A stretch of DNA of 21,743 nt from Fimicolochytrium jonesii (GCF_025526975.1 NW_026515686.1:558001-579743), one strand, 5' to 3'; shown: positions 881-21,743, counted from the first letter of the stretch. Program-made: numbers and translations. Notes: generated from the letters alone by a model not told the origin.

Positions 881-1187
881 TGAAAACTCTATAAAACTCA
901 CCCGCCCGTTCAAACGTCCCCAGAAATCTCAATATCAAAAGAAATCTCAGCACAACTCGGGCGCCTTCACGGAGACTGTGATGTTTACTACTCGGCGTGG
1001 TGACCTGGTGGGTCCACGTTTGAAAGATCTCCCTGCGGCCGCCCCTCCATGGACCCTTGGGGCGAGGGCACTCACACGGTGATGATCCGAAACGCCACAT
1101 TCTAGGTCCGGTGGTCAGAAGAGCAACGATGAGGCCACACCCCTCCCCACTACGCCCATATGCGCTGCTTCGTTATCGAGTACGACG

Positions 1188-1240
1188 AAGCTTACGCGTC
1201 GTTCACCGGCAAGACAAAGCTTACGCGTCGTTCACCGGCA
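1188..1240. repeat. Exact 24-bp direct repeat AAGCTTACGCGTCGTTCACCGGCA (29-bp period)
   Basis: Copies at 1188-1211 and 1217-1240. Confidence 0.9.
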
Positions 1241-1699
1241 TTCCGATCGCGGGTTTTCTCATCGCATCTCCCAAAATGTCTTAGCCGATGCGGGAGCCCC
1301 ATCCCGCACGATTTGGCGGGGTGTTGTTGGGTGAACTTCGAAGAGGGAAGAACGGAGGAGAGCGCGTTATTGACAGCATGGTGCACAAACACATCCGTCT
1401 GCTCTCCAAAAGCTCCTGATCAATGCCACATGCCCGACCGACTTCTCTGATGGTGTGGTCGTGCATACAGCTCGTCAGTATTTGAGCTACGCATTATGTC
1501 GCAAGGGAAGAGTACGATTATATTAATGTAAACCATGGAAGCGGATATACTTCTGGAGCTTCCATGTAGTTCATCTATCACTGAAGCGAGAAATCTAGAT
1601 ACAAAGATAAAAGAGGAGAGTGCACGCAAGGCGGTAACAGAAACAAGTCTTCGCCGGGGGTCTAGCTAGCCTGCGATGGATAAATTCACAATCTAAACT

Positions 1700-2524: not shown

Positions 2525-2628
2525 GGTGGGTCCGTGCGTTGGTGATGTGGAGGAGAGCTCTTGGGTTGTGTCGAATGGGAGTGTTTCGGGGTTTTGTGAG
2601 GGAAGCACTCCTCGGGAGGACTCCAGCC

Positions 2629-2636
2629 TTTTATAA
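2629..2636 (-). promoter_or_regulatory. Candidate TATA box of the CE12 gene
   Basis: TTATAAAA on the minus strand ~105 nt upstream of ATG 2524. Confidence 0.5.
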
Positions 2637-3255
2637 AAGTGGTAATATTCCGATGATGAATGTTTCCCGAGTAATCATACAGTATTCGATGATTCCGCAC
2701 AAAGGTATTCAGCACCACGACCCGGACAACCCAGCGCCGCGTGCTTTCGACTTGATCAGTTTCCGGTAGGGGCGGTCCTCCACGACGCACGAACGTTCGG
2801 CCCCTTGCACTAGGTGGCCAAAAGTCTGGGTACAACGCCCCAAGGACACATCATTCCGATCATAGCCACCAGCAGATGTCGCCGGCTTGCCTGCACACCT
2901 GAATAAGTACGGAAATTGACGGCAGCTGGTCGTTGACTTTTGGGTTTCACCAACAGGGCGCAGAACCCGTCGTACTCCACCTACTGTAGAGTTGGCACCA
3001 GAGTTCAAAGAGCCACTGCTTCATTGGTTGCGTGCTGCTGAATTCTCTGTCATTGGCTCTGGGCATCCGCTGGCATGATCGGTTCTGCGGAACACGACTT
3101 TGGGCCTCGGCGAATTATGTTGACATTTTTTCCAGAACGACAGCGGTGCCCTACCAACATCTCTTTTCAGGGAAAGTTTGCCCGGCGAATGGCGCCGCCG
3201 ATCGAACGCAGGTACCTGGGTTCGGTGCCGTCAGGTGCAGTCCGGGAAGGCCATA

Positions 3256-3431
3256 CAGTGGGTGGCCAAAAGAGCAGTTACGCGCGCCCAAGAACAGCTC
3301 ATTCAGAGCTGAGGATCGTTGGCCCCCTCCTTCCTCCCGGCGTGGATAGGCGACTGCGTCGCGATAGCTGAGCTGACAGCCGGGGGTCAGTGGCTTTTTG
3401 GTCACTCGTAACTGCTCTTTTGGCCCCACTG
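3256..3431. mobile_element. 176-bp Tc1/mariner-type MITE
   Basis: Terminal inverted repeats CAGTGGG(T)GGCCAAAAGAGCAGTTACG / CGTAACTGCTCTTTTGGCCCCACTG, flanked by TA on both sides (3254-3255, 3432-3433). A CAGTG start with a TA duplication is the Tc1/mariner signature. No transposase ORF. Confidence 0.9.
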
Positions 3432-5386
3432 TAGGTCATGGGGTCAATACGGTCTCGTGCGTAGCTCGGGGCATTGGGACCCTGGTTTAAAACTTGCGGT
3501 CAGTGTGAATCGGGGTCCCGCCCGTCATTCCGTTGACAGGAAGCGGAACACGTCTGGAACATTGACTGACCCGAGTGCCAGGGTGTGGGGGTGCGGAACG
3601 CCTTCCTTACCGGCGGTACGCACCCCTGACTTCTCACACTCGCTGTCTTCCCTCGTCGCGAGCCATGGCAACTCACACCCACCACTTCCCTTCCCAAGGC
3701 CCATCATTTCTCACCTCCTTATCCCCATACTCGGTCATATGTATTGCCCATCATCCAGGACATCAATCGCTTTGCTCATCCGTCAAGCAACCCCGCTCAG
3801 TCATCACGCTCACATCACCTCGTTCGCGAAAGGAAGCCTTAAGTTAAAAGGATACCCATGCATGCGAGACCACAATCTGGGTTCGCTTTCTATATCTTTG
3901 GGCTTCAGAAGAAGGAAGGAGGGTCATTCCATTTCAGCTGTGCCCTTGTTTTCGCCTGAAGAAGCGATAGCTTATGGGATCAGTTGGCTCCGCACGCCGC
4001 CTTCCGGAATCCGACGGTCCTTACCATCTCTTGTACAACATCATTTGCACTTCATACCGGCCTCACAGTCACAAGTATCGCCTATGTATCCGATTCTGAC
4101 CCGCCGTCTGTCTATCCGTTGATTGAAATGGCTGACCATTGAGGACGAGAGGGGAAAACGCCATGCGACGACAACGCCGTCAACGCCGTACGGCAGAAGG
4201 CCATTGGCCTTGGCACACCGCTCACCTTCCACATTCGACTTCACAACGACGTACGCACTGATGCCTTATCACACAAGCTTGCCCCCTTCTCTTCCTTCTC
4301 CTTCTCTTGCGATACGATGTGATGGTGGAGCCTGATAGAGAGCCTCCCGACGGGAATCGCAACGCATGGACAAAGGCACAAGAATGTGGGCAAGGTACCT
4401 GCGTAACTCGTACTCATGGAAATCTCATTTGCACTATTAACCATAATACATACCTCGATGCCCTCGCATCAGAGAAAACCATATACGCTGCAATGTGGTT
4501 CTAAGATCTGAGCGGAAAGTCCGATAGAGGCTCCTCACTTTTTTTCGGGGAGAGATGAAGAACGGGTTGGGAGTCGCTGGCAGAGATATTTTCATTTCGG
4601 GCAGGATGCACGAGCCAACGGGGTTCTGAACGGAGGAGGCTCAATGGTGTTTCATCTGGAAGCTGCCAGAAGGAGGATTTGAAGGTTTGGCGGACGCCGG
4701 TCCCTTCGTCCACAAAACGTATAAAAAGGGGGTTTCCGCCTGAGGACCACCCGTTCGCCTGCATCAAACATCCTCATTCCATAGCATCCGATCCGAGCAT
4801 ACCCACATCAGTCGAACAGACTCAAGTTTAGACCTCCCGCCCAACAGCCGAGAGTCCCAGCCGAGAGTAAAACACTCCTGAATTGTAGATAAGGTGGCAG
4901 CTCAGATAGGCACCGCTAGGCGGCGTCAGTAGGCGGTGGCGATGGCGAAGACCCAAAGGAGCGTGGGGACGGACGCAAGCCCTCTCCTCCTTTTTATAAG
5001 TCGACGGTGGCAGGGGCTTCGGAGGGCAGCTCGGGGTTACGTTGGTGTAACGCTTCAAGCATGTGATTTCGCGGGCAACGTCCCGCAGCTTTTTCGGTTT
5101 CGTGCGCATATTGCGGGAGTTTTTCTTTCGACGCAAAGACTGTGGGAAGCTGCCTCCACCGCAGCAAGCCGTCCTTGTAAATGCCGGTGGGCGAGCGATG
5201 GGAAGAGTTGAAAGTGGCAGCAATCTGACCTAAGTGATGTTGTTTTCCGTTGCGTGATGATCCCGGTCCGAAACCGTCGGCCATCCTTCTCCGATTCTGA
5301 GATCTAGTGACAACGCGCGCGTTGGCGAGTTTGTGGGGCCAGGGGGCCGGTGCGAAACAGGAGCTTTTAAGCTTCCTCTTCCTACC

Positions 5387-5394
5387 TATAAATA
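5387..5394 (+). promoter_or_regulatory. Candidate TATA box (TATAAATA) upstream of the REase-kinase gene
   Basis: Consensus TATA ~200 nt upstream of ATG 5594. Confidence 0.4.
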
Positions 5395-5593
5395 GCTTCC
5401 CATTCACAACGCCGCTGTATATACATATTCACAGGTCTTCAAAGGACGACCATTCCTACCGGCTTCCAAAGTGAATGGGAAGCGATACTCTTAGTTAGCC
5501 TTGTTCCCGCTGACCTCCCCGCCGCAGAGTCTCAAAATCGCCGACGCTGTCAAACTTTTAGACAGCATTGTTCACGAACACCGCTCGCTAGCA

Positions 5594-7732
5594 ATGGAGC
5601 CTGCCACCAGCGAGCGGATAGCCCGCGTGACCGTTTACGTCTTGGTTGACACGACCGTCGAGGTCCTGCAACGTTTATTGGACCACCTTCCGAAGAACTG
5701 CCGTATCACCACTGTTAAGCAGGATGCACCAGGAACACCCGTTGTCGCCTTAACCTTCTGGTTCAAGAATAACCCTGCCGACGTAAGCACCTTGGAGTTG
5801 AGGGCATGGGTACTCACCCATGCAGGCCCAGCGCTGCCCTTTGTGTACCTAGGCCGCCTGGCGAACCAGCTGCCCTTGACGATTTCCTACGCGCACGAGG
5901 AAGCAGGCCCCGAGTGGCTTATCGGCCCGCATAATGTGCCTTCTAAGGGCGTAACGTTGGAAGAAGCCATCGATCGTGTCGGACGAAAAGTTGTCAACCT
6001 GTATTACCCTGTGTTTGTGGTAGATCTGACCAACAGAGGTAAGCCCGGTGGCGACTATTGTTTTCATTTAGGACCGCTGGACAGGCTCACATCTCCTTTA
6101 CCTCCAGGAACTGTCAGCGGGCGGGAGATGCTAGAAATTCGTTATTTATCCAGCATCAGCAGAGCCACAACGAGAAGCTCGACTAAGGCTGCCAGTGGGC
6201 GACGGCCTTCCCGTGTCTCCAAATGGAACGAATTCGGAGCTGCCGCTGCAGCTTGCTTTGTCCCAGCCGTAGCGCCCGTTCACCGCACTCGGTACAACCC
6301 GCCCTATTCCGATATACGGAGAGTTGTGGGCCTCGAGAGCACCATCGAGAGCCTCCTAGACTGTGAGCAATTCATGGTTCTAGAAAACATGTACAGTGGT
6401 ATGGCGATCGAAGTGTCGGAACGAACTGGGTGCTCCGTGGGTTGATCGGCCAACCGGATAGAGTTATCCACGATGGAGTCACGCCGCTCATCCCTATTGA
6501 AGTGAAACCGGGTTCCGTACTCCCGCAAGGTACTGATATCGTTGCGGACAGTGCAGCGGCATTTTCCGCACTCGGCAGCCTCTCTGATCATCGGTACAGC
6601 GAACTTTCCGGTGTCGAAAGAAAGACGTGGGACGAAGTGGTTCAGAACAACATCTCCGCCAAAGTGATAATCCAAGCAAATGGTTACGCTTGCGCGAATC
6701 GGTTGAAATACTCCATAATCAGTAACCAAATGTCCTGGTGGTTCCTGCAGCGACCTGAGAACGACATCACCTCTGTTTCCGTCGCCGGGCCTTTCGGCAC
6801 GTACGGCACAGGGCCTACGGTGATCCAATGTCTTAATTATATAATCAGTCTCGCTCTGAAGGAATCCACTTGTCCTTCTCCTAGCGAGAGCCCGGCCTCA
6901 TTTCCGGCAGCACCAGTCCGGGCGACACTTGGGCAGGTTAGGGGCGGGTCGTTGCGTTGGAGTGCGGGACCGAGACCAGGCCGAGGCCGAAGAGGGGCAA
7001 GAGCCTTAGGGTTTTCTCAGATCCGGCTTGGTGGGAAGAGCGGGTCACGAAGGCCTTATTCGCGACCCACTCTGCCCACCAAGCCAGATCTTAGAAAATC
7101 AGCGATCGCAATTCTACGTTCGGGCGACACAATTGCCTTTACGAAACTGGACTGGCTTCCGCCTTTACGAGTGCATTACACCGAGCACTCGACCGTGATG
7201 GAAACCGTTTTGTTCCCCGGCACCTCTCACAGCCTGGAAGTAGCCCTGAAGCATATTGATTACGAAAAGGTTGAATCGGACGTCGTGAGCCAGATGGAAA
7301 CCGAATTGGACGTGTACACTCAACTTGCGGATTTACAAGGTAATCTTTGGGCTTTCAGGCGTACTGGCTTTTGACTTCTCCGCTGTCGACGTCTTTTAAT
7401 TCCCTTGTCCTTTATTAGGAAGCCTTATTCCCCTGTTACGGGCATATGGATCGATCGAGGGTGGGACGTTTCTGTATCTCGGTACGGAATACATAAAAGG
7501 CCACACTCTCACCTCCGCCGACCGCCACCTCGGCTCTCAAATCCTGCACGCATTTCAAACCCTCCACGCCACCGGATGGGTACATGGCGATGTTGCCCCG
7601 CGAAATGTTATCGTGGCCGAGGAAGATAATCGACGGATTGTTCTGATCGATCTTGGAATGGCATCCCCGGCGAATACTGCGAGCGCCACGCTGGAAATCA
7701 ACGCCGTGAACCAGATGCTCTCACGGCTGTGA
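5594..7732 (+). pseudogene. Crinkler-type PD-(D/E)xK nuclease + protein kinase-like gene; one -1 frameshift (between 6367 and 6445) and one intron (7340-7418)
   Basis: The REase part has GQPDRV...IEVK and Q-x-x-GY...N-x-LKYS-x-x-S...WFLQR. The kinase part has VALK and ETELDVY...LQG. After splicing GTAATC...TTATTAG it continues SLIPLLRAYG...TEYIKG...LHATGWVHGDVAPRNVIV...IVLIDLGMA to TGA 7730-7732. This last exon is missed by the ORF track. Confidence 0.82.
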
Positions 7733-8687
7733 GGTGAACAAAGGCGTTATTTTATGGTTATGCTCAGTGTATTGTCCGCATGTAGGCAGCGTAATTCCGC
7801 ATGTAGAAGCCATATTTAGATTAGAAGCTGCGAGTAAATCAGGAATATGGATTAGAAGCTGCAAGTGCATTTCAGCTTCAACATCAATTGGTAGTTGGCG
7901 TAGGAGTTAGGCAGTTGGGGCGGAGGAGTCAGGAATACCAAAGTAAAACATTAGTTGCAAAAAGTTTCAGCAAGTCCTTGTCAGCAACGAGTTGAGTGTA
8001 TTATTGTGCGTGGATAGCACTCTGAGCGGAAGGCGAACACACGAAGGGTCTCCGCCGAGTGCAATAATACCCCAATAAAATCGGACGGCATCTAACAATG
8101 AATTTCGGAAAAGATCGCTTGAGAGTTGCTCATGGAGGATCAGAATGATTGACCTCGCAGGAAATGATCCTAACAGGGGTGGCAGCTGTTGCGTCAGTGG
8201 TTGAGAAAAAATAGGTGGTGCTTGTCAACAGTGAAGCTCCGTGATGTGTATTACTCCCATCTTTCTCAAATCAGTCGGCTTCATTCGACAAGTACAGATG
8301 GACCATCTGGAATGCGATGAGCGGGGGAGTCCCGAAACGCTGAACCAAACACGCCGGAGTGCGAGGCATTATGGAGGATTAAAGCGCCAGCATAGACATC
8401 ACCAAAGTCCTGATGCATGAGATGAGATCGATTGTTATTCTCTTAACATTGACCGGTGCCAAACTGCTCATTGCTTCTGCTACTATTGACTTTCAAAGCC
8501 CGCATCCGCCACCCTTGTTCTGATATCAATCAGAGTTACAGGTGGAGTTCAATGCTGATCAAACGTTTCGTCAGGCTCATCTGATGTGAAGGGTGACAGA
8601 AGTCATTTACGACCGGTGGGATGTGGGAACATTTGAGGAATAGTCTACGAACGATTGGGGAATCGGTGCTTGAGGTTATTTCTGTTT

Positions 8688-9065
8688 TCATCCGGGCCCT
8701 ATAAACTCCAGATACAACCCCCGTGCAGTGTAAACTTCAAACACCGTCGCCAAAACATTCACCCAGCCGCCGACCTCCCCCTCAACGACCACATTCAAAA
8801 GCCTTCCCATCGCCGACCCGAGCGCGACACACATCACAGTATACACCACCCCGTCGCGAACCCGATCCCACGTCTGCACCCTATACAGTGCGAATCCGAG
8901 ACCGATAAGGAGGCCGCCGAGTGCGGCTCGGATTTCGGATTTGCCGGGGATATTTCCTCGTTCCAGGTAGATATCGTACATTGAAATGTAGATGGTTGGG
9001 TCCCAGAGGTTCAAGATACCCAGGGTTGTTAGGAATAGCGCTGAGCTTATGGAGGACCGAATCAT
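8688..9065 (-). CDS. Small 4-TM membrane protein, DUF4345-like, 125 aa
   Basis: Hydrophobic helices with family-like motifs SEIRAALGGLLIGLG and GRLLNVVVEG...E; clean ATG-to-stop ORF. Confidence 0.7.
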   Translation of the reverse strand: MIRSSISSALFLTTLGILNLWDPTIYISMYDIYLERGNIPGKSEIRAALGGLLIGLGFALYRVQTWDRVRDGVVYTVMCVALGSAMGRLLNVVVEGEVGGWVNVLATVFEVYTARGLYLEFIGPG

Positions 9066-9420
9066 GTTTGGGATTTCGACGGGGGATTCTGGACGGGGTT
9101 AGGAGTGTTTTCCGGCTGTGTCTTTTGAAGGCAGACTGGATGAGAGGGGCGAGCGGATGGACAGGGGTGGGACTGTAATTGGGGCTTAGAAACACCTACT
9201 ACATACTGTACTGATGATGTGATGGCGGCTGGAACGTTTGCGAACCTGATTTCAAGGTCCACAGAAATCCGGACTCAGTGCGCACATACTAGAGAGGTTG
9301 TGCTATCGGTTTGTACGGATTCGGGCGACGGATTGGGTGTGGCTTTATGAAAACGTTTTCGTTGCTTCCAGCCGGCTGCTTGCTGTTGTGCTATTCGTTG
9401 ACCTTCTTACCATCTCGAAG

Positions 9421-9697
9421 ATGATCATGGCCACACCCCACGCCATGGAGGCCACTTCTGCACCTCCCGCTCCACCTGCTGACCCCACACCGCTCAAAGA
9501 GAAGGAAAGGACCTCACCTGCATCCAGCCCATGACGTTGCCCTTTTGAAGGAGGTTGTCGCCCACCTCCCCGAGAGCAAGCCTCGCAATCTGCTGGAGGC
9601 GGAAATGGCAGATTGCAGGGCGGAAATGGCAGACCGGAGGGCAGAACATGCCGCTACGATGCGGCTCATGATGACTTTAGCAGATAAATTCAAGTAG
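9421..9697 (+). pseudogene. PIF/Harbinger Myb/SANT-like accessory ORF relic (frameshifted, internally deleted)
   Basis: After a +1 shift near 9497 it reads KRRKGPHLHPAHDVALLKEVVAHLP (first Myb-like helix, D-x-x-LL-x-EV-x-A-x-x-P). This is fused directly to a coiled-coil tail EAEMADCRAEMADRRAEHAATMRLMMTLADKFK*. It converges on the Harbinger transposase. Confidence 0.6.
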
Positions 9698-10034
9698 ACT
9701 GTAAATACATTTGTACGGTTGGGGGCTCTACGTTAAAGGTGGAGGTGGTAAGGCTCCCATGTATACATGTATGAATATTTGTAAACAAAGTGGCAAGAAG
9801 ATAGAACCGTCCCACTGGCTGGAGCCAGATGTTCTGGTTTTTTGCAAAGTCGACGAAGGCCCACAGTTGAATGATTTTTCCGAATCCCCACTCCACACAT
9901 GTTCGGACAGCGCTCATCCGTGTGTTGAATTCCTGCTGTCGCAGAGTTAATTGGGCCCCTTTGAAACCCACTTGTAGCCAGGGCCTCAACGGATACGCAG
10001 GATCACCGTAGATAACAAACTGACGGCCGTTGAA
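9690..10034 (-). mobile_element. PIF/Harbinger (DDE_Tnp_4/HARBI1-like) transposase, C-terminal fragment
   Basis: FNGRQFVIYGDPAYPLRPWL...FNTRMSAVRTCVEWGFGKIIQLWAFVDF...LFTNIHTC...F-x-x-x-PPT-x-x-x-YL; the N-terminal part is absent. Confidence 0.9.
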
Positions 10035-10496
10035 TTGTGCAGCAGATGGATTGGAGCATGCATTCTTGTAAAGGTCTCAACTTCGCCATGAAAACATACC
10101 TCCGCCTCCTCATCACTAACGTCAACATCCACCGACTCCTCCTTGGTAATAAGCGTAATCCCGCTCTGCACCACCCGCCGCCAAAATGGCGCATGCGACA
10201 CAAGCATTCCTTCAGTCAAATGGCCCTTAAAGTCCTCGCAACCAGGTATTGAAGGCCTCGGCTTCATCATTTTTTTGGCACGTCTTTCTGAGCACGACAA
10301 GGCAACCCATGGCCTTGTCGTAGAATTGATCGCCGAAGGAATTGCTGATCCAACCACGCAACATGACAAAGAAACTAGTACGAAGCAGCAACATGCCCCG
10401 TGGTCTCGCGAAGTATTGGCGAGGAGTTAATCTGAGGAGAACAGCGGGACTGAGACACCACAAGGGATAAGGTGCAAGAGCGCCGCGAGTCGTGCT

Positions 10497-10680
10497 TTGA
10501 AGTATTCCATAGTAGCAGATGATAACACCATCATTTGCAAATTGGTACGGCATTGGCTGGAAAGGCTCGGGTTTGCTTGCATAGCTGTCGATTCCGCTGA
10601 CACCGCCTTTCTCTTGATCGCAAACAAAGCCGCAAACGAATTTTCCCTTCTCGTTACCGATCTCGACTTTCTGTCCAAGT
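10497..10680 (+). pseudogene. Response-regulator receiver (REC) domain, N-terminal half
   Basis: IVADDNTIICKLVRHWLERLGFACIAVDSADTAF...FSLLVTDLDF matches the acidic pocket DD, helix 1 and the phospho-acceptor Asp. There is no recognisable second half (no T/S, no KP), and an in-frame TAA lies upstream at 10428-10430. Confidence 0.7.
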
Positions 10681-10967
10681 CCCTCATGTCTAAGCATTAC
10701 TATTGGTCTCTACGCCGGGGAGAGCTGCTTGACTCGTTTGTTCCTTCTCCGGCCATGCAGACTTGGAGTCGAGTAATGTAATCGGAGAGCTGGGATTCAG
10801 CTCAGAACTGGCAAAATATCTGCCGAGTGCAAGGACACAAACATGATCGCTCTTAGTGAGAACAGCCGCACCTCGTGAAGGTGGCGATCTTTCCCTAGCC
10901 ATTTTAGGTGGCCAAAAGGCCACCAGGGGATTTCAACCCGAACATCCGACGGTCTCCAAACGTAACC

Positions 10968-12157
10968 CTAACCCTCCACCTCGTACAACGTATCGCAGGA
11001 CCGCCTTAGTTCGTCGCGACGAATGATTTTCCGAGTTAGCTCTGCTTCACTATCCCACGGATGCAATTCAAGGTCCTCGTCGGTATCAAACACCTCCTCC
11101 TCGTCAGTATCGGTATCGGAGAGTGGAACATCTCCTTCTCCGGCGGCACCGCGCATGTTATTCAAGACCGCCTGAGCAAAATGGGCCCGGAAAAGCTCAG
11201 GCTCCGGAAAGAGATTTCGGAAATATGTTGGAGTGGGACTGTGAGGGAGGATGCGGGGTGTCATGACTTCTTGACCGTGATGCAATCCAGTTACGGGACG
11301 GAACAAATGCACAACAAACTGTTTGCAAAAACCGCATTGTTAAGACGGTGATGCGCAACGAAATAATGTCCGTTCAAACCTTGTCATCTTTGGACCAAAT
11401 GGAGAACCGGAAGGCATGGAAACTGTCGTGCAGCGACGAAGTCATTGTTAGACCGTTCTTGGTGTCGAAAGACGGAAGATAACGGTTGGAGACGACGGGG
11501 AAGCCGCATAAGAAGTCTCGTCGATCAGGATCCTCCTCGAACTGTGTTGGAAGATATGTCTGCATGAGCGACTCACGCTCTTACTCAACCTGCAAGCACA
11601 CATACCCATTTTGCGCCATACTCCGGGGTCAGGACGTGACAGCATTTGAGAATCGCGTCATCACATTCGCCAGTCAATACGCAGCATTGGTCACGACGGG
11701 TGCAGTGAGCTCTCATCGCAGCTTGAAGGCCTTTCTTTTCGTCCTTCGACACTTTCCTAAGCAGTTCCTCGGTACCCTGGTCGGCTGATACAGGCTTCGC
11801 GGAGGTACCCACAGGAGAATCATCTGATCCGTGCTTACTCGCTTTACGGCGGGTTGAACCCCTTGAACGCATTTGAGCGACGTCTGGTGGTTGTAGAACA
11901 CAGCCAGCAATCGCCGACGACGGATTGCCTGGAACATGGATTGTCAATTTCCTGCATCTGGGAGGCAGGGTGTCTGGTGAATAAAGGGCCCAAGCATTGT
12001 CTGTGTTGCGATAGGAAATGGCGAATGGTGTTGTTTCCAGCACGGGGAAGGCTATCTGCATTGCCAAGGTCAAAACATCCGCTGCAGGTAATACGACGAA
12101 TGGAAAGGAGGCGAGGAAGTTGTTGCTTGCGTCGAAAATGCGAAGGCTGGTTGGCAT
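10968..12157 (-). CDS. HNH endonuclease (HNH_2-type, Crinkler-like), 3 exons: 12157-11606, 11559-11380, 11318-10968; 360 aa
   Basis: RRDQCCVLTG...CCHVL; NGLTMTSSLHDSFHAFRFSI; PELFRAHFAQAVLNNMRGAAG followed by an acidic tail. Two phase-0 GT-AG introns (11605-11560, 46 nt; 11379-11319, 61 nt with a CTTAAC branch site) join the three ORFs with no stop. Confidence 0.88.
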
Positions 12158-12381
12158 GGTGCAAGGCTATTCTCGAAAGGCTGTTGTTGCTGTGACGAGT
12201 GTTTGTTCGTTGAATGAGCTACAAGTCTGGTTGCTGTAAGACTCGGGTCGTTGCCTAGTACTTCTCGCGAAAAGCAAGGAAAATTGCAAGCCAGTTTCGG
12301 GCGGAGATCGATCTATTATAGATCATCCTACTCGATTTATAAATAGACCGAATCGGAACCGCAATAGGTTCCGCGTATCGG

Positions 12382-12466
12382 ACAGGAATGGATACACCTG
12401 ACCTGGATACACAGGAATGGATACACCCAGGAATGGAACACCTGTGGGCGGAACACTGCGGAACAC
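12382..12466. repeat. Short imperfect repeats CAGGAATGGATACAC (x3) and GCGGAACAC (x2)
   Basis: Seen directly. Confidence 0.7.
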
Positions 12467-12809
12467 CGAGAAACTTTAAATTTCCTGCCCCTCCGAAGAT
12501 CCTCCGATGATGGATCCATCTTTTCTTCCCGTCTTCTCCCGTCTTCTTCCGTCTTTGTCGTCGTCAAATATCTATCGTTTTCGTACGGGTTCTCGACGAC
12601 GACAGTGGTAAAGATCCATTCATCGCACTCCACAGCTCACTCACGCGTTCGATCGCACCTCACCCATCATCCGACTGTTTTCCAAACACGGACACTCGGG
12701 AACTCACGCAAATCCACCCAAAACATGTTTACAAAACCAGTACCACCAACCCCACTTACTCCTAAGTTTACCTACGCAGACCATGAAACATGGATCGCCT
12801 TGACTGTAG

Positions 12810-13515
12810 TTGTCGGCGGCCATGGGGATGTCCGTTGAGTATATTCCTTTAGGGAATGTTACGCTTGAGGATTGGATACGAACCTTGGAGGCTGATGAGT
12901 ACTTCGCTTTGCAGAAAGAGGCGTTGTCGCAGCCAAAGGAACGACAGTCTACATTCGATGGACGTTTCTCGATCGATGAGCATGGTCGTTTACTGTACCA
13001 CGATAAGTTCTACGTGCCAGCTGCTTTACGAGGGCTGTATTGCAGGCGTACCACGACTCGTTGCTTTCTGGCTCGCATACGGGGGTTCAAGGTACATTGG
13101 GCAAGCTCCTACGTGAGTTTTACTGGCCCAATATGGACGCAGACGTGAGAAGGTACACCAAGACTTGTGGGTCTTGCCAAAGGTTGAAGTCGCCGAACAA
13201 TAAGCGCGTTGGCTTACTTCGTTCGCTCCCAGTTCCCGACCGACATTGGCACACGATGGGTATGGATCCTGTCTCGATGCCAATAACACGGTCGTGAGGG
13301 GGGGAAGGTGCATAGTGATGCGTTTTACGACAGTATTATTGTCTTCATCGACTATCTGTCAGGGCGCGCATACTTTATACCTGCGGCATCCACGATAACT
13401 GCCGAGGAGTTGGCCCAGCTTTACTTCCGTGAGGTATGGCGCCATACAGGTACTGCAGCTGTGATCGTCGGAGATCGAGATCCACGCTACCTGGCATACT
13501 TTTGGAAGGTGTTTG
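12810..13515 (+). mobile_element. Ty3/Gypsy LTR-retrotransposon integrase fragment (decayed)
   Basis: The HHCC zinc finger reads YHD...GSHTG...FYWPNM...VRRYTKTCGSCQRLK, then GLLRSLPVP...W...MD. The rve core reads IIVFIDYLS...FIP...IVGDRDPRY...FW. It has two frameshifts (~13038, ~13290-13305) and is truncated before the catalytic Glu. Confidence 0.93.
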
Positions 13516-13547
13516 AATCGTTACATCGCAACGCACAGCACCTCACT

Positions 13548-13690
13548 CACACACGCACATCACACAGAAGGCAAGCCTCTGAACAGCCCAGGAACCACAC
13601 ACACACGCACATCACACAGAAGGCAAGCCTCTGAACAGCCCAGGAACCACACACACACGCACATCACACGAGGCAAGCCTTCAACAGCCC
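13548..13690. repeat. 52-bp CA-rich minisatellite (~2.7 copies) followed by CA-rich low complexity to ~13750
   Basis: GAAGGCAAGCCTCTGAACAGCCCAGGAACCACACACACACGCACATCACACA recurs at 13567 and 13619, and partially at 13670. Confidence 0.9.
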
Positions 13691-13785
13691 ACACATCACG
13701 TACACACGCACCCACGCACCCACGGATACAACGCACACGCACCACGCACGCGACCCCAGTGCTTTTCATCGAAAGCCGCTCCATC

Positions 13786-15996
13786 TCACTCAAGAATGAC
13801 GGCGAACTTTGGGATGCTGGCTCCTCGTTTGTATGGTGTCGGGACGGGGGCTCGCTGGAAGTCGTTGGAAGGCTCATCAGTCTCCTGCGAGCTCGGGGCC
13901 GAAGACAAGTGTAGTTCGAAGTCGTCGGAATCGTAACCCGCCTCCGCTCGGAGGCTTATGTCAATTCGCTCCTAGTGGCATCAGATGTGTTTCAGGAAAA
14001 AAATGTTCCTGTCAGAAACCGTCGGAAAGGAGACAAAAGTTACCGCACGCACTCTAATGTGGAGCATAGCGCCGACCAGTCGAAGCAGCAGGTCCATATC
14101 CTCTAGTCTCCGTGGAAACTTGCAGGATGCGCTATGGTACATCGTGTAGATGCCGTCATACTCGAGAGTCATCTCGTAGATTTCGATGGACTCTCCTGCA
14201 TTTTTCAAAGTCGATTAGGACAATGCATTCGGCATATTGGAATAGGCTGTGGTACGCACGGAGCAGTTGAATTCCGAAGCAGAATGCGTCATTGACCCCT
14301 GTCTTCGTCTTCTCGTTCACCGAGCCTTGCAAGAAGAGCGCCACTTTGAACAGATCGTACATGGCAGCCGCGGAAGAGTCCGCAAATTTGCCGGACTTCG
14401 TTTTCAGGAACAACTCTTCAAAGCGCTCGGAGAGAACGCGACCGTCTGGCTTCTTCCCACATGCATCTGGGCGGTACGCCTGCCTATGGAGTCGAGAGCT
14501 GCGGCTCTCCCCGTTCGCCCTGGTCATACTTCAGTACGGGGAGAAAGGAAAGCTGCAAATGTGGCAGGAAGAAGCAAGGATCATACCAAACGGTCACCAT
14601 CTGGTCGTCGTTGAAAAACCTCTCCATCAAGGTATGCAGTATGGCATGGACGTTAGTGTCCTCATCAAACGTTGCCCCATTGAAGGTTCTCAATCTCTTT
14701 TCCTTATTCAGCGCGTCGACACTGGGGGAATGCGCGGAGTGATTGTCAGTCTCAGGTTGATGCGTAATTGGCCGACATCACGTACAAAGACGAAATGACC
14801 ATCAAAACTTTCCACGGGGAATCCCCCAGGCATCCTGCCCCGTCATCACTTCGGAGAAGTGCGTTCGCCAGGTGCTTCTTCCACGTGGCTTCGAAAGGGT
14901 GGTTTGATCGTAGTTCCTGATAAGGTCGGTGATCAAATGAGATGGGCAAAACTGCTCGTCTTTCGCCCCGATACACCCTGCCGCGAAACCCGATCTCGGT
15001 CCTACCTTGCAGAATGGCTCAACCACATCGGCAACCGCACCTTTGAGCGAGGCATCCATGCGTCGCTTGCACGTCTCAAGCCTCATCTGTTCCCAGGTAC
15101 GCCGAATGTTCGGCCGATCGCATGTGGATATGAAGGATGGGAGGTATGTGCTGCTGACCAAAAGGATGTTGTTCAACAACCTAAACGGGAAACGAGGTAA
15201 GTCTCTTTCACCATCGCAGAAGTGACCGTATGCGAACTATTTACAATATGTCGCTGATGGTTTCCATTTTGTATCCAGGAATATCCTCCCCCCTGACGCA
15301 TTTCTTGTACAGGTGATGTTGTGCCTCTCTCACCCATCGGGAGATGTTTGCGCCGCCAAATTTGAACTGTGAAAGTAGTAAGTATTCTGGACACCTAGAA
15401 GCAGACATTGGCACTTACGTCATGCTTCGATTGATATTCTTTGATCGTCGCGAAACGCTCACGAATCGTGGCAACGGAGAGGGTCACCACCTGCGACGGA
15501 AGAAGATCAGGATGTGAAGTTGTCCCGGGAACACAACACATGGTTCCCATGCCTGCTTTCCACTGTCTTCGATCTCCGCGGTTTCCTCTTCCTCTTCCTC
15601 ATCGAGACCATCTGCGGGGTCGCTCAGGCCAGGATCCTCGGACGCCAGCGTCTTTTCCAACTCTCCTTCCATCGCCGCCTCGTTCACCTCCCCCCGATTC
15701 CCCGCCGCCACATCGTCCGCAGCCCCCTTCTCGTTCACCGTTACCTCCTCCATCACCGGCGCCTCCTGAATCACCGTCTCCCCCGGCGTCGCCGTCTCGT
15801 CCATCTTGCTCTCGCATACTTCATCCGCCGTCATCTCATCCTCATCGCCATCGCTTTCGCTCTCGCTTTCCGAATTCGTCTCCATCACTGGCTCCGAAAG
15901 CACCTCTTGGCCGCCACCACCTTCCTCAGCCGTCCGACATCGCTTCGCCCGACCCGGCGAAATTTCGCCGCCTTGCCGCTTTCGGCCATTCACCAT
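13786..15996 (-). CDS. Multi-exon PD-(D/E)xK REase-fold (Crinkler-type) protein with basic NLS-like and acidic N-terminus; 5' exon structure uncertain
   Basis: Checked introns 14586-14520, 14259-14196 and 14052-13972 give VTVWANGESRSSR...GKKPDGRV...LFLKTK...DLFKVA...FGIQLLRESIEIYEMTLEYDGIYTMY...FP...LLLRLV...PTPYKR...* (TGA 13788-13786). Further GT..AG introns are apparent between 14700 and 15550. The start may lie at 15996 or upstream (to 16230). Confidence 0.72.
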
Positions 15997-16587
15997 ATTG
16001 ATCAGATCTTGATGGCATTTGACCAAGGAGTCCTGGGCCTGCCAGGCGGTATCTTGAGATATCCATGCGGATTTATGCGTGCCCACCAAGCTCTCGGTCA
16101 TCTGTAGGAAAGCACACGTCCGACCAAAGCGGGCGCAATGAAAAACAAATGGACCGAAGAACGAATAATCGAAATAATAGAGGATTTTGCGGATAATGTT
16201 GTCAATCGAAAGATGCATCGTTACAGACATAGGTATGTGTAGGATAGGTGTTTCCCATCGATGACAGCCGAGATGGAATGTGGGGTTTTAGAGGAGGATA
16301 GACATCGTAAACGCGATTCATATGAATGAGATCAGGGAGGTGTGGAAGAGGAACAGAGATGGATGCGGAGGGGTATCAGTATACAAAAGGACAAAATTCC
16401 TGCACTTGAATCGAGGGACCGCTGACCTTTTCCATGCTCTCCTTTTCCTTCTTCTGTTCCTGAATGAACGTGGCCTCGCTCTTGCAAAGAAGGGAAGATA
16501 AGAAAGTTGAAAGTTAGATGTTGGTCTTGAAGGACAGATAGCGCATAAGATTGTCAGAAAGAAAAGGCCCATAGGGACAGGCTAAGA

Positions 16588-16921
16588 GACAGATACGAGA
16601 CACCTGTTTCGGGCTAATGTCCTCGCTCTGTCTGGACAGGTACCGCTGGTGCACTTAAGCCTCCACCGATCCTACCAGGAGAGGTCACCTTCCAACTTTA
16701 CTTGCTGAACGCGTCCTCCCCTCCCTGCGGCCGTTCTGCCAAGCGGTTCACCCTCCGGAAGGACACCATATCCATCGTGGGGAACGGACAGATATGAGAC
16801 ACCTGTTTCGGGCTAATGTCCTCACTCTTGCCTGGACAGGTACCGCTGGTGCACTTAAGCCTCCACCGATCCTGCCAGGAGAGGCCACCTTCCAACTTTA
16901 CTTGCTGAACGCGTCCTCCCC
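16588..16921. repeat. ~134-bp direct duplication (16588-16721 and 16787-16921)
   Basis: Near-identical copies differing by a few substitutions and one indel. Confidence 0.92.
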
Positions 16922-17045
16922 CGCAAGTTCCAAACCTGCGCGCACCGCGAACTTGGCAGCTTCTACAGAGCAACTTGAGTGGTGAACTCACCGCCTTGGC
17001 TTTCACAATCCGCTTCATCAATGCCCGCTGCGCATTCCTCGTCAT
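16698..17045 (-). pseudogene. Zn-ribbon-containing ORF relic
   Basis: LLCRSC...RWRLKCTSGTC. It is partly duplicated by the 134-bp repeat, and the left copy has CAG>TAG. Confidence 0.35.
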
Positions 17046-17607
17046 CGTCTTTCCCGGTGTCGTTGTAAGATCAACCTGGATTCTCCCGCACGTAGGTATT
17101 TATGGCTTTGAGTTTGACGGGCTTTGCCATGTTGCTTCTTTGAGTCGGTGTGCTAATCTGCGTGGGTCCGGGGGTAGCGAGCGACGCAAGCAGATGGGCG
17201 ATGTGCATCGAGTGTTGTTGCGTCCATTGACCAGTTCAGAAGGACGCGTCCGTGAGCTCGGACGGGGCCGACACGCCGCCGCACCACTGGATTCCGTTCG
17301 AGGTTGTGCTTACTAAGCTTCTTTTCTTACCAGCCAAAATGGACATACTGTTACGTAGCCCTGAAAATGGAAGGCCGATCCGCACCCGCAGAGACTCAGA
17401 TTCCCCACGCCAACACTAGTCCGTACCTATCGCTGCACGGGAGGATATTTCAACGTTCTATGAAACCAGCCACTTCACGGCGAGCAACGCGATCGAGGAA
17501 TGGGATTTGGAGAGCGGAAAATTGTCATCAACGTGTCTTGGCATCTCTCCCGATAGCGAGATGCAAAAGCAACGAAAGAGCATGTTACGCAATGAAGTGG
17601 TTGTAAC

Positions 17608-17902
17608 TTATGCGATTGTGTCGGAAAGCCGAGAATTCTCGGCCTCCGTCCCGTTACCCGTAGTCCCAGGGTTCCCAGCCAAACCTGTACTAAGGGGAGT
17701 TCCGCCAGCGCCACCTGAAGCGTCCAGGATGAGACTATTTGGCAGAGGAACCTGATAAATACAAACGATACATCCTCCTCCGCCCCCTCCTCTGCCACCT
17801 GTAGCACCTGGAGTCCCTCCCGTATAGGATGCATTCCCACCGTTGCCTCCTGTTGCGCTGATCCTTCCTGTACCTTGCAACTGTCGGGTGGCAATGATCA
17901 AG
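17608..17902 (-). pseudogene. Glycine-rich protein C-terminal fragment (phage/giant-virus fibre-like repeat), 5'-truncated by telomere repeats
   Basis: IIATRQLQGTGRISATGGNGGN...GGGGGGCIVCIY...DASGGAGG...GNPGTTG; no ATG, and the frame runs straight into the (CCCTAA)n tract. Confidence 0.65.
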
Positions 17903-17995
17903 AGGGTTAGGGTTAGGGTTAGGGTTAGGGTTAGGGTTAGGGTTAGGGTTAGGGTTAGGGTTAGGGGTTAGGGTTAGGGTTAGGGGTTAGGGTTA
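17903..17995 (+). repeat. Interstitial telomere tract 1, ~15 x TTAGGG with two TTAGGGG variants
   Basis: Seen directly. Confidence 0.98.
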
Positions 17996-20238
17996 CAAGA
18001 CCCCCTGGGTTGGGTTTTATTATTGGGTTGCCTGGAACCCTAGGGACTTAGAAATTTTCGAGTTTTTTGGCTTTGGGCAGTGTTCTACAGTTCAGATTCG
18101 AGGTTCCAAGGGGTAGGGTGCCGGGGGTGGTGCGCACCTAGGCAAGCCGGGGGGGACTAGGTGTGCAAGGGCAAGTGATGGGTCATATGGGTGGTGGTGC
18201 AGGTACGGGGGGGGGGGGCAGGGGTGTCAATAGGGGGGGGGGGTTGATATAAAGGGGACATATACGTTATATATACCTTATAGGACTTGTGCAAATTGGG
18301 ATTTTTTTAGTGCCGATCCGGAGTTGGCGTCCTAATTAAAAGTTGGCCCCATATCATATTCTCTAATTGAAGTACTCTCGGATTGGCAATCCGTGCGGAA
18401 ACGGCTTCAGAAACTTAGAAAAACGAAATTTTCACGCGACGGGGGGTAAAAAATTGGAAAATGTGGTGATATCTCAACATCTGGCTGAATATCCAGTGTT
18501 GGGCACTTAATGAAAGTTGATTGTAGCCTATGGTTTGCATAGCTGATGTGGTAGCAAATCTTGTTTAACCTCGCTTTTGGCTGAAGAAAAGGGCCCCTTT
18601 TCAATTCTCAAGTCGTGACCCCCAAGACCTCCTAACAAAAGACACGTGTACGTATGTGCAGGCAAAGGGGTTTGGCCGTGTTCTCCAGTAAACATTTTGT
18701 GAATTTCGCTGTGCATTGTAGACTGTTTGTAGGACCCTTGCGGTATGTTATTTCCCAAAACTGTTGAACATTTTCCAGCTAAAGCAGTGTTCTACAGTTT
18801 GTCCATGCAGGTGAGGGCACGTGACCTGGGCCTGCTTCCAGGGTACGCAGAGTGAGAGGGGTGGGGTTAGAGATTTCCCAGCGCACTTATTAAACTCAGC
18901 CAAATTGTCTCTGTCATGGAACATTTAAAAATGGTGGAAAGTAGTATTGCATTTATTGATTTAGAGTACATTGGAAAAGCGCACATTCAGAAAAGGGTTT
19001 TGGTGTAAAGTTATCAACGACATTCAACAGTACTAAAGGACTTCCGCAAGCATGCAAGCATGTCACGGACTTGGTTCTGTCCAAAAGTCGTACGGCACTC
19101 AGGGTACCTGGCGCAGCGGAGACGGAAACGATGCTGACCGCCAATGCTATGAAAAGCTGAGCCTCCACAGTTGGGACATTGAAGCTGATCACGATGCTGA
19201 TGGAAGAGTTCACGGATATTGCCAATGGGAGCAGCATCAGGCACTTCCCCATCCCCATGACCCCACCAAGCACGAGCAGGATCAATGACGGGTGCAATGC
19301 CTTTGAACCATCCGGGATTGAAACCAAAAGAGTTGAGAACATCTCGGAAGCGCTGACAGTCTGTCACAGTAGTCTGTCTATTGCGATCACCTCTGAATAG
19401 AACTCTGGTGGCAGCGTCCATGATGCCATTGATGAGACTGTAGTACTCTTCCACCGGCACAAGCTTCAAGGAGTTTGCGCCCATGTGCTGGAAAATGGTC
19501 TCGATCTGGTCCAAATGGAGATTCAAAACCATCTGTTCCGCTGATTCCAACCTGGCGCACTGAACTCGCACTTCAACTCGCATGCCAGTAATGTGGAGCG
19601 GGTGACTGTTGAGCCATTGACGTAAACCTCTCAGTGTCTCACTGCGATCACCAAGGCTGGACTTGGTTTGGGGCATTCGCGAAGACAAAGTCGAAGAGTA
19701 GGCTTTGAGCGCATGAACAAGCTTTGGGTAGCAAGTAACCCAAACATTGGCGTGACCCGCAATGTCAAAGCGGGTGGACCCAAATCCCTCACCAAGGATG
19801 GTGAGCATGGGAAAGGTGGCGCCAACTCCACGTCCATTGTAGCGAACCAAAGGAATGACCCCATGAGTGTTCAACGTCTGACCAATGTCCCATGTGTTCA
19901 GTGCAGCATCGGGATGGTTGCTCACTTCCTGATCAAAGGAATAAGCTGGCAAAGTCCGAATGCGTTGCTTCATTCCATACTGCACAATGCGTACAGAGGG
20001 TGACACAGCACCAATGATGTCCTGGAACCCAGACATCAACAGATTTTGCCGCCCAGCAATCACTCGTGAGTGATCCGTGCTTTCCCTCACGATGATCGAA
20101 TGTTCATTGTGAAGTAACTCAAGAATCCTTGCCTTTGACTCTGGATTGAATGGAATGCTAATGACACAAGGTCTGCTAGCGATCCGCATCCAACCGGCGA
20201 AAGCTTCACTGTCCTTGATATGCTGCATCACTCCAGAC
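17996..20238 (-). mobile_element. Telomere-embedded element A (2243 bp), probably 5'-truncated
   Basis: Bounded by telomere tracts on both sides. Its left end recurs at 21007 with the same junction. It carries one long minus-strand ORF and ~1 kb of non-coding 3' region. Confidence 0.7.
19014..20228 (-). CDS. Uncharacterised ~404-aa protein with C-terminal Zn ribbon (CPNC...CARYPEC), encoded by element A
   Basis: Long intronless open frame, with AATAAA at 18957-18952 just downstream of the stop. The NPNPNP N-terminus in the ORF track is translated telomere repeat. The first ATG past the tract (20228) is only 10 nt from it, so the true N-terminus may be lost. Confidence 0.75.
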   Translation of the reverse strand: MQHIKDSEAFAGWMRIASRPCVISIPFNPESKARILELLHNEHSIIVRESTDHSRVIAGRQNLLMSGFQDIIGAVSPSVRIVQYGMKQRIRTLPAYSFDQEVSNHPDAALNTWDIGQTLNTHGVIPLVRYNGRGVGATFPMLTILGEGFGSTRFDIAGHANVWVTCYPKLVHALKAYSSTLSSRMPQTKSSLGDRSETLRGLRQWLNSHPLHITGMRVEVRVQCARLESAEQMVLNLHLDQIETIFQHMGANSLKLVPVEEYYSLINGIMDAATRVLFRGDRNRQTTVTDCQRFRDVLNSFGFNPGWFKGIAPVIDPARAWWGHGDGEVPDAAPIGNIRELFHQHRDQLQCPNCGGSAFHSIGGQHRFRLRCARYPECRTTFGQNQVRDMLACLRKSFSTVECR

Positions 20239-20337
20239 TTAGGGTTAGGGTTAGGGTTAGGGTTAGGGTTAGGATTAGGGTTAGGGTTAGGGTTAGGGTT
20301 AGGGTTAGGGTTAGGGTTAGGGTTAGGGTTAGGGTTA
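20239..20337 (+). repeat. Interstitial telomere tract 2, 16.5 x TTAGGG with one TTAGGA variant
   Basis: Seen directly. Confidence 0.98.
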
Positions 20338-20991
20338 CAGGACTGTTCCCGGTTATGGGTTATTTTTGGCCATCCAAAAAGTGTCAAATAAAGTTGCTAG
20401 CAATGTTCAGGGGCATCTTACTGTAATGTGCTTCAAATTTTGGGGCATGTTTTCCACTCAATGCCCCGGGAAAATCTGTTTTTCCGATTTTTTACTATGA
20501 AAATATTGCCAAAATGCATTTTCTGGAACTCTGAGTGGATGGATTTCGCCTAAAGTGAAATATGTCTCAGAAAACATCCCCAAAAACATCTAGGAACCTT
20601 CATCTACTCTAGTATTCATCAACTCCTGGCACTTTTTGTTTCCAGGCAATATGGGGGTGTTCTCCAGTTGGCTGCGAATGACTCAATTTGGTTTGCTCTC
20701 AATTTGCTACATGTTCAAATCCTTTTGAGGCCCAAATACTTTCTTTTCTCCCACTGCTCCTTCTGATGGTGGAGGATGGCAAATGCCTTTTTGCATTGCA
20801 ATACATGGATATGACAGGGTGTTTGTCAACCAGCAAATCATGCAAAAAGCATGCAGTGCATGTCCGTTTGCATGCACTATGTCATCCGCACCACCTTGGA
20901 CACCTGAGGAAAGTTGTGCGGATTTGAAAGATAATATAGTTACGGAAGTGGAACCAGGGAGATTCAATGACTATTGAAGGAGCTATGGCAC
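20338..20991. mobile_element. Telomere-embedded segment B (654 bp), terminus related to element A
   Basis: Flanked by telomere tracts. It begins GGGTTA|CAGGAC...CCCGGTTATGGGTTATTTTTGG, against GGGTTA|CAAGAC CCCCTGGGTTGGGTTTTATTATTGG for A. No convincing ORF. Confidence 0.55.
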
Positions 20992-21006
20992 TTAGGGTTA
21001 GGGTTA
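20992..21006 (+). repeat. Short telomere tract 3 (2.5 units)
   Basis: TTAGGGTTAGGGTTA. Confidence 0.9.
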
Positions 21007-21743
21007 CAAGACCCCCTGGGTTGGGTTTTATTATTGGGTTGCCTGGAACCCTAGGGACTTAGAAATTTTCGAGTTTTTTGGCTTTTGGGTGTGTTCTACA
21101 GTTCAAATTCTTGACTCTGAGGGGTGTGGTGGCGGGGGGTGTTGCGCACCTAGGCAAGTCGGGGGGGACTAGGTGTGCAAGGGCAAGTGATGGGTCATAT
21201 GGGTGGTGGTGCGGGTATGGGGGGGGGGGGGCAGGGGTGCCAATAGGGGGGGGGGGGGGTTGATATAAAGGGGACATATATGTTATATATACGTTATAGG
21301 ACTTGTGCAAATTGGGATTTTTTTAGTGCCGATCCGGAGTTGGCGTCCTAATTAAAAGTTGGCCCCATATCATATTCTCTAATTGAAGTACTCTCGGATT
21401 GGCAATCCGTGCGGAAACGGCTTCAGAAACTTAGAAAAACGAAATTTTCACGCGACAGGGGGGAAAAAATTGGAAAATGTGGTGATATCTCAACATCTGG
21501 CTGAATATCCAGTGTTGGGCACTTAATGAAAGTTGATTGTAGCCTATGGTTTGCATAGCTGATGTGGTAGCAAATCTTGTGTAACCTCGCTTTTGGCTGA
21601 AGAAAAGGGCCCCTTTTCAATTCTCAAGTAGTGACCCCGAAGACCTCCTAACAAAAGACACGAGTACGTATGTGCAGGCAAAGGGGTTTGGCTGTGTTCT
21701 CCAGTAAACATTTTGTGATTCCGCTGTGCATTGTAGACTGTTT
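21007..21743 (-). mobile_element. Second copy of element A (A'), running off the window
   Basis: Colinear and highly similar to 17996-~18727; the duplicated 65-aa spurious ORFs at 18407 and 21423 differ at three residues. Confidence 0.9.

What the first reader, a model, noticed from the sequence alone, without database searches (positions are those of the whole stretch)
17903..21743. Head-to-tail chain of telomere-embedded elements: candidate undescribed telomere-targeting mobile element
Seen: (TTAGGG)~15 - A - (TTAGGG)16.5 - B - (TTAGGG)2.5 - A'. All G-strands point right. A and A' are diverged copies with an identical left junction, and A's ORF reads from the distal side inward. Known: a fixed 3' end joined to telomere repeats, a variable 5' end capped by repeats, and tandem chains describe Magnaporthe MoTeRs, endonuclease-lacking Penelope-like Coprina/Athena/Terminon elements and Drosophila HeT-A/TART. 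Inference: each unit was added to a chromosome end, truncated and re-capped by telomerase. The cargo ORF is not a recognisable RT, endonuclease, gag or RecQ helicase, so this may be a new family or the 3' cargo of a much larger element.
Basis: partly seen in the sequence, partly recalled or inferred. Interest (0 to 1): 0.88.

Follow-up and report, generated by a model that had tools for sequence, protein, structure and literature searches.

The report
Telomere-chained fungal element encoding Rep-like nickase
A chain of DNA units separated by telomere repeats carries a cut-off gene from a widespread but unnamed fungal protein family that likely nicks DNA the way plasmid rolling-circle starter enzymes do, so it would be a new kind of jumping DNA that adds itself to chromosome ends, possibly without a reverse transcriptase.

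The parts
17608..17902 (-). Host-side Gly-rich ORF remnant whose 5' part is replaced by telomere tract T1 (likely a healed chromosome break)
   Evidence: Frame open from the stop at 17608 into T1; residues 2-83 match positions 251-329 of 339 of phrog_13336, E 2.8e-6; low-complexity caveat
17903..17995 (+). Telomere tract T1, 93 bp, two TTAGGGG variants, ends GGGTTA
17996..20238 (+). Unit A, 2243 bp: fixed proximal end CAAGAC, 1018 bp non-coding, ORF, distal end cut inside the ORF
18131..18167 (.). 11-bp-stem DNA hairpin about 135 bp inside the fixed end, kept in A'; possible binding or origin signal (inferred)
   Evidence: ViennaRNA DNA fold, -10.8 and -12.5 kcal/mol for the 55-nt segments of A and A'; no shuffle control
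18080..18091 (+). 12-mer GTGTTCTMCAGT, copy 1 (others at 18678, 18787, 20657 in B, 21091, 21694); candidate protein-binding repeat shared by A and B
19014..20237 (-). 5'-truncated 407-codon ORF: Rep_trans-like core (D117 at 19889, G153 at 19781, Y170 at 19730, R220/E222 at 19580/19574) plus C4 zinc ribbon (C354-C381); lacks the family's N-terminal DxD motif and the C-terminal extension of its closest relatives
20239..20337 (+). Telomere tract T2, 99 bp = (TTAGGG)16 TTA with one TTAGGA variant
20338..20991 (+). Unit B, 654 bp, no recognisable ORF; fixed end CAGGAC and one copy of the 12-mer; likely the proximal end of a related family, truncated
20992..21006 (+). Telomere tract T3, 15 bp = (TTAGGG)2 TTA
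21007..21743 (+). Unit A', second copy of A's proximal 733 bp (95% identical), runs off the window end

Best explanation
The units are telomere-embedded, head-to-tail copies of a likely rolling-circle-type DNA transposon whose single gene is predicted to encode a Rep_trans/MOBT-like (non-HUH) tyrosine nickase. Shown: chain anatomy, a fixed proximal junction GGGTTA|CA(A/G)GAC shared by two different units, truncation of A inside its ORF, and a conserved fungal family with invariant D, G, Y, H, K and RxE. Inferred: the enzyme nicks the G-rich strand at the fixed junction, stays bound to the 5' C through Tyr170, host replication displaces that strand towards the chromosome end, and the 3'-OH of a telomere ending in TTA attacks the phosphotyrosine. 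The transferred strand then is the new 3' overhang; it ends wherever copying stopped, telomerase adds (TTAGGG)n TTA, C-strand fill-in completes it, and the next unit is added in the same way. Copy A lacks the first acidic motif and is predicted to be inactive, so an intact copy elsewhere would supply the enzyme; B would be a truncated end of a sister family.
For: Junctions: 3 of 3 tracts end GGGTTA, 3 of 3 units start CA(A/G)GAC, 2 of 2 distal junctions start TTAGGG; N. crassa telomerase products end in that register (PMC3592445 passages). Truncation: DxD upstream in 50 of 51 homologs, 26-31 residues before window residue 1 in the 49 measured. Family: 147 clusters at E<=1e-3; in a 96-row alignment D117 89/89, G153 94/94, Y170 95/95, H175 96/96, K178 95/95, E222 95/95, R220 91/95. 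Model pLDDT 91 puts D117, G153, Y170 and R220/E222 on beta-strands; Rep_trans have their Tyr in a sheet with D, D, E ligands, HUH in a helix (PMC5714925 passages). Foldseek PDB ranks 1-3 are RepDE and RepSTK1; VIA re-alignment ranks them 1, 2 and 6 with 135-152 aligned residues; ESM Atlas feature hits include PF02486 and PF05144 clusters. Motif profiles from 26 Rep_trans/MOBT proteins rank the expected family positions 1, 3, 10, 1 and 3 of about 422. TE-like occurrence: identical protein at consecutive loci EV422DRAFT_570366/570367 of Fimicolochytrium jonesii, five loci in one 90% cluster of Pseudozyma flocculosa, OTU fusion in 21 of 68 scanned. Rep_trans/MOBT form 5'-phosphotyrosine adducts and do strand transfer (PMC9371924 passages).
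Confidence: 0.45

Rival explanations
1. A and B are 3' parts of larger telomere-targeting retroelements (Terminon/Coprina-like or MoTeR/FoTeR-like, or non-autonomous partners like MoTeR2). An RT primes on the G-rich 3' end or on a nick, 5' truncation and telomerase healing make the chain, and the Rep-like ORF is cargo.
For: Fixed 3' end, variable 5' end capped by telomere repeats and head-to-tail chains are described for Terminons, which also carry Rep ORFs as cargo (PMC6431247 section 8) and for MoTeRs, separated by half to more than 20 repeats (10.1101/845669 Introduction). FoTeR 3' ends are followed by TAACCC, the same register as here (PMC12857005 section 19). A is truncated, so a distal RT gene cannot be excluded.
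Against: No CTGANGA hammerhead core on the sense strand beyond 17800 and no Rfam hammerhead; no YxDD/FxDD, PD-(D/E)xK or CCHC pattern in six frames of 17900-21743; no RT, endonuclease or helicase domain in 68 homologs scanned, up to 1454 aa; consecutive identical loci in F. jonesii suggest no annotated gene between copies (weak, since annotators often mask RT genes).
Confidence: 0.25
2. The ORF is an enzyme of another, unknown kind or a passenger gene, and the units spread as a subtelomeric repeat by recombination or break-induced replication, being clipped and healed by telomerase.
Against: B differs from A throughout yet shares the junction hexamer, register and 12-mer, which points to an end that is recognised by sequence; five motifs in Rep_trans order and concordant top hits from two kinds of method.
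Confidence: 0.13
3. Same Rep_trans-like enzyme, other strand: it nicks the C-rich, coding strand at CCCT^AAC, the telomere mimicking the family's nick core, excises or rolls telomere-tagged circles, and these re-enter telomeres (Y'-circle-like).
For: The MOBT/Rep_trans nick site is CT'AA (PMC9371924 passages). In 34 bacterial Rep_trans/MOBT loci scanned, 11 hairpin rows were found; 9 have CTAAC in the loop and all 6 with known strand are on the coding strand (several rows are duplicates or near-identical elements). Here the coding strand is the C-rich strand and the fixed junction reads GT'AAC on it.
Against: It does not by itself give truncated distal ends, seen in A and probably B; no hairpin encloses the site; strand agreement is a one-in-two chance.
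Confidence: 0.12
4. The chain is a misassembly joining unrelated chromosome ends through telomere repeats.
For: T1 and T2 are 93 and 99 bp of simple repeat; no read or contig spans them; the window ends inside A'.
Against: T3 is only 15 bp, so the B-A' join lies within any read; joins of true ends would not put non-telomeric DNA with one shared junction motif distal to 3 of 3 G-tracts; A and A' differ at 34 positions.
Confidence: 0.05

Closest known systems
Rep_trans (PF02486) initiators and MOBT relaxases: pT181-family RepC/RepD, RepSTK1, RelSt3, NicK
   Same: Order of motifs D - D - G - Y - RxE on beta-strands; N-terminal VDWxxVT look-alike (F. jonesii DVDWMAVTI vs RepSTK1 CVDWLQVTF, rank 1 of 422); top structural hits
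   Different: No significant sequence, profile or structure score; insertion between motifs III and IV; invariant H and K after the Tyr; C-terminal zinc ribbon and often OTU; eukaryotic, telomere-embedded; no hairpin origin found
Helitron/Helentron, Replitron and IS91/ISCR rolling-circle transposons
   Same: Inferred strand-transfer chemistry, one fixed and one variable end; OTU fusion as in Helentrons (PMC6431247 passage)
   Different: These use HUH enzymes; this family has no conserved HxH pair and no helicase domain; the Replitron paper has 0 occurrences of 'telomer' or 'Rep_trans'
MoTeR (Magnaporthe) and FoTeR (Fusarium) telomeric non-LTR retrotransposons
   Same: Head-to-tail arrays inside TTAGGG tracts, mixed units, truncated copies, 3' end followed by TAACCC
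   Different: They encode an RT with a REL endonuclease; none is seen here
Terminon/Athena/Coprina endonuclease-less Penelope-like elements
   Same: Fixed 3' end on the G-rich telomere, 5' truncation capped by repeats, chains, Rep cargo (Coprina and Athena details recalled)
   Different: No RT in view and no hammerhead near the 3' end
Yeast Y' elements (recalled, not looked up)
   Same: Units embedded between telomere tracts in tandem
   Different: Y' encodes a helicase and spreads by recombination; here a nickase-like ORF and mixed units with a shared end motif

Membership tests
Rep_trans/MOBT (PF02486) | Match to the Pfam model or significant profile-profile similarity | tested here: not met
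   No PF02486 hit; hhalign E 0.059-0.23, probability under 1%
Rep_trans/MOBT (PF02486) | Motif N' with conserved Asp | tested here: met
   Family DxD in 50 of 51, rank 1 of 422; deleted in this copy
Rep_trans/MOBT (PF02486) | Motif I RxD | tested here: inconclusive
   D117 invariant on a strand, rank 3 of 422, but no Arg; hhalign puts motif I on the R83 strand, which has no Asp
Rep_trans/MOBT (PF02486) | Motif II T/SxY/ExG | tested here: inconclusive
   GxG[YF]GS with invariant G153, rank 10 of 424
Rep_trans/MOBT (PF02486) | Motif III catalytic Tyr in a beta-strand (YxKxxE) | tested here: met
   Y170 95/95 on strand 165-171, basic residue two places on, rank 1 of 422; the Glu is replaced by an invariant His
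Rep_trans/MOBT (PF02486) | Motif IV RxE | tested here: met
   R220 91/95, E222 95/95 on strand 219-226, rank 3 of 422
Rep_trans/MOBT (PF02486) | Two-lobed fold of RepD/RepSTK1 | tested here: inconclusive
Rep_trans/MOBT (PF02486) | CT'AA nick site in a GC-rich hairpin loop | tested here: not met
   CTAAC is present in every telomere repeat on the coding strand but no enclosing hairpin in 17900-21743
Rep_trans/MOBT (PF02486) | Metal-dependent nicking with 5'-phosphotyrosine adduct; dimer | not testable with these tools
   Needs biochemistry
HUH rolling-circle transposons (Helitron, Replitron, IS91) | HUH motif and helical Tyr motif | tested here: not met
   No conserved HxH column pair; Tyr is in a strand
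MoTeR/FoTeR | RT plus REL endonuclease ORF | tested here: inconclusive
   Absent from the 3.8 kb in view but A is truncated distally
MoTeR/FoTeR | Head-to-tail arrays within TTAGGG tracts, 3' end followed by TAACCC | tested here: met
Terminon / EN-less Penelope-like | Hammerhead ribozyme just before the 3' telomeric repeats | tested here: not met
   No CTGANGA on the sense strand, no Rfam hammerhead at E<=10
Terminon / EN-less Penelope-like | PLE-clade RT in the full-length element | not testable with these tools
   No genome held; no full-length copy available

The most novel reading that the evidence does not exclude
A fungal-wide class of DNA transposons that uses a Rep_trans/MOBT-type tyrosine nickase, an enzyme class not found described in eukaryotic transposons in my searches, to weld its fixed end onto telomere 3' ends, capping broken chromosomes and building telomeric chains with telomerase as partner: a DNA-based, RT-free counterpart of HeT-A/TART, MoTeR and Terminons.
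Probability: 0.45. Interest if true: 0.93.

Novelty: categorically new. Interest (0 to 1): 0.82.

Why it matters
Eukaryotic rolling-circle transposons described in the papers I saw use HUH enzymes, and telomere-targeting elements use reverse transcriptase. A Rep_trans-like nickase element at fungal telomeres would add a new transposase class, show that chromosome ends can be extended by DNA strand transfer, and give a name and testable function to an unannotated family present in chytrids, smuts, rusts and tremelloid yeasts. The rating 'categorically new' holds for the best reading (0.45); if an RT turns up in full-length copies it drops to a new variant of telomeric retroelements with an unusual cargo enzyme. 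The protein family is unnamed in either case.

Tried and rejected
No whole genome held, so copies and junctions could not be tabulated. Word-indexed protein searches found 1, 0 (longer forms) and 3 relatives; only the exhaustive search showed the family. PDB sequence searches gave nothing meaningful; phage tblastn only chance hits; viral fold library no match at E<=0.001. The two-sequence structure model was useless, pLDDT 32. Homodimer prediction gave no verdict. DNA context of relatives: nothing in metagenome or viral contigs with the two-row alignment, one degenerate locus with the eight-row alignment, no junction match in viral contigs. No RNA holder listed; soil run X1 has two 151-bp contigs on the ORF (0 and 2 differences), nothing across junctions and nothing on 1-17890: no evidence either way. 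Splicing of the missing N-terminus from B or A' rejected: N-terminal HMM E>1 in all frames. Translated telomere repeats in homolog proteins: 0 of 156. TIR transposon with TTA target duplication rejected: unit ends are not inverted repeats and A's distal end is inside the ORF. DDE/RNase H reading considered (RNase H2 at Foldseek ranks 4-7) and set aside because the invariant Glu and Tyr lie on strands. Overall similarity of the first 60 bp of A and B is weak (160 of 5000 shuffles, 19 of 1190 background windows); the junction 12-mer at two mismatches is not enriched (13 of 100 shuffles). Literature searches that found no description of this family or element; the library lacks most subscription journals and Repbase, and the original Terminon paper was not held. 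No supplements were read; repeat tables in fungal genome papers may list the element.

Full report
Observation. The chain is as described. Telomere tracts lie at 17903-17995, 20239-20337 and 20992-21006, all G-rich on the + strand. They separate A (17996-20238), B (20338-20991) and A' (21007 to the window end). A' matches the first 733 bp of A at 95%, with 34 differences, none in the first 79 bp. All three tracts end GGGTTA and are followed by CAAGAC or CAGGAC; T2 and T3 both follow AC, begin TTAGGG and are 99 and 15 bp long. B shares little with A overall, but it shares the junction (naive chance 8e-4) and the 12-mer GTGTTCTMCAGT, found six times, only inside the units. No genome is held and no read set spans the chain, so this rests on one locus. 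The organism is not given; the ORF groups with Fimicolochytrium and Phlyctochytrium proteins in an 11-row clade (SH-aLRT 99; quick tree of 86 of 96 rows, 10 short rows left out, careful search unfinished), so a chytrid-like fungus is inferred.

The ORF is cut by the telomere. A's minus-strand frame (19014-20237, 407 codons) opens directly at T2. An exhaustive search finds 147 clusters at E<=1e-3. Of 95 homologs aligned, 51 had at least 35 residues upstream and covered the start; 50 of these carry a DxD motif there, 26-31 residues before the first window residue in the 49 measured. The two closest full-length relatives carry it too. An HMM of that segment finds nothing in B or A'. So A's distal end is a truncation capped by repeats, and this copy is predicted to be dead. 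On the proximal side T1 cuts a Gly-rich frame that matches the last quarter of phrog_13336, so the chain probably sits on a healed break inside a gene. N. crassa telomerase adds +9, +15, +21 nt to (TTAGGG)3 (PMC3592445, passages), that is, products ending in TTA; T2 and T3 have exactly that form. That this organism's telomerase behaves alike is inferred.

The family. Named members come from F. jonesii, Phlyctochytrium arcticum, Tilletia horrida, Puccinia graminis, Pseudozyma flocculosa and Tremella mesenterica; 7 of the 21 family clusters looked up had an organism name. F. jonesii has the identical protein at two consecutive locus tags and P. flocculosa five loci in one 90% cluster, as expected of a repeat. 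Of 68 homologs scanned (68 of 147, mostly the longer ones), 21 have a C-terminal OTU protease (20 above cut-off) and none has an RT, endonuclease or helicase domain at E<=0.01. The core has no Pfam or PHROG family. Invariant residues are K90, N114, D117, G153, Y170, H175, K178, E222, G305, W324 and C354.

Mechanism. Rep_trans/MOBT enzymes nick one strand, hold the 5' end on a Tyr and transfer it to a 3'-OH (PMC9371924, passages). A fixed 5' end joined to a target 3'-OH is the natural product. Here the fixed 5' end is CA(A/G)GAC on the G-rich strand and the target ends in TTA, the telomerase end register. The transferred strand would be a new 3' overhang, ending where displacement stopped and open to telomerase, which explains variable distal ends and chains. 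An origin downstream of the transposase gene with a variable upstream end is also the IS91/ISCR geometry (orientation recalled; ori, ter and ter read-through seen). None of these steps is shown. A second option is nicking of the C-rich coding strand at CT'AAC: 9 of 11 hairpin rows from 34 bacterial loci have CTAAC in the loop, on the coding strand in 6 of 6 rows with known strand, though rows are partly redundant and no hairpin exists here.

Rivals and comparison. An RT priming on the same 3' end gives identical junctions. MoTeR arrays (10.1101/845669: abstract, Introduction, first part of one Results section), FoTeR junctions (PMC12857005: abstract and one section) and Terminons, which carry Rep ORFs as cargo (PMC6431247: passages and section 8), all share the anatomy. 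Against them: no hammerhead, no RT or REL pattern, no RT in any homolog scanned. But A is truncated, so a distal RT cannot be excluded (0.25). Replitrons (PMC10288648, passages) and Helitrons are HUH. HeT-A/TART, Coprina, Athena and Y' are recalled, not looked up. Seven searches found no description of this family (listings only).

Earlier notes of this scan. After I had noted the Rep_trans idea, word searches returned two unchecked AI notes on other genomes describing Rep_trans-like genes in telomere-linked fungal units, one in an 18-kb unit with a helicase. Sequence look-ups with the window ORF and with P0020 found nothing, so I cannot say whether they concern this family. They are leads, not support; they suggest that full-length units may be much larger than A.

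Verdict. Real feature; unnamed fungal enzyme family; telomere-targeting mobile element likely (about 0.85); Rep_trans-like, RT-free transposon the single best reading (0.45, plus 0.12 for the other-strand version). Interest 0.82.

Noticed in passing
window 10100-10356, minus strand: Two adjacent reading frames match successive parts of the Ku C-terminal domain (PF08785, E 2e-10 and 2.4e-5): a Ku80-like 3' end about 7.6 kb from the telomere tract, lying among transposon remnants.
   Followed up: partly
window 9690-10076 and 10968-11339, minus strand: DDE_Tnp_4 (Harbinger-type) transposase fragment; the second ORF looks by eye like a Harbinger N-terminus but has no Pfam hit.
   Followed up: no
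window 12810-13634, plus strand: Frameshifted LTR-retrotransposon integrase remnant (Integrase_H2C2 E 2e-18) followed by a 52-bp tandem repeat at 13544-13691.
   Followed up: no
window 5495-7732, plus strand: Three successive frames ending in a protein-kinase-like domain, resembling by recall a Crinkler-like gene, with an 87-bp imperfect inverted repeat at 7012-7098.
   Followed up: no
window 16588-16721 and 16787-16921: 135-bp direct repeat at 96% identity about 1 kb before T1.
   Followed up: no
window 17608-17902, minus strand: Gly-rich ORF cut by T1 matches a phage protein family (phrog_13336), unexpected in a fungal-like genome.
   Followed up: partly
P0111 residues 821-874: One distant family member ends in a weak Rap1-type Myb domain hit (E 0.0019, below cut-off), a telomere-binding fold; source unknown.
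   Followed up: no
P0002-P0005 C-termini: The closest relatives carry a Trp-rich C-terminal domain of about 60 residues instead of OTU; it has no Pfam hit and is absent from the window.
   Followed up: partly
window 18075-18130: 15 of the 34 A/A' differences fall in 56 bp, suggesting a patch from a diverged subfamily.
   Followed up: no
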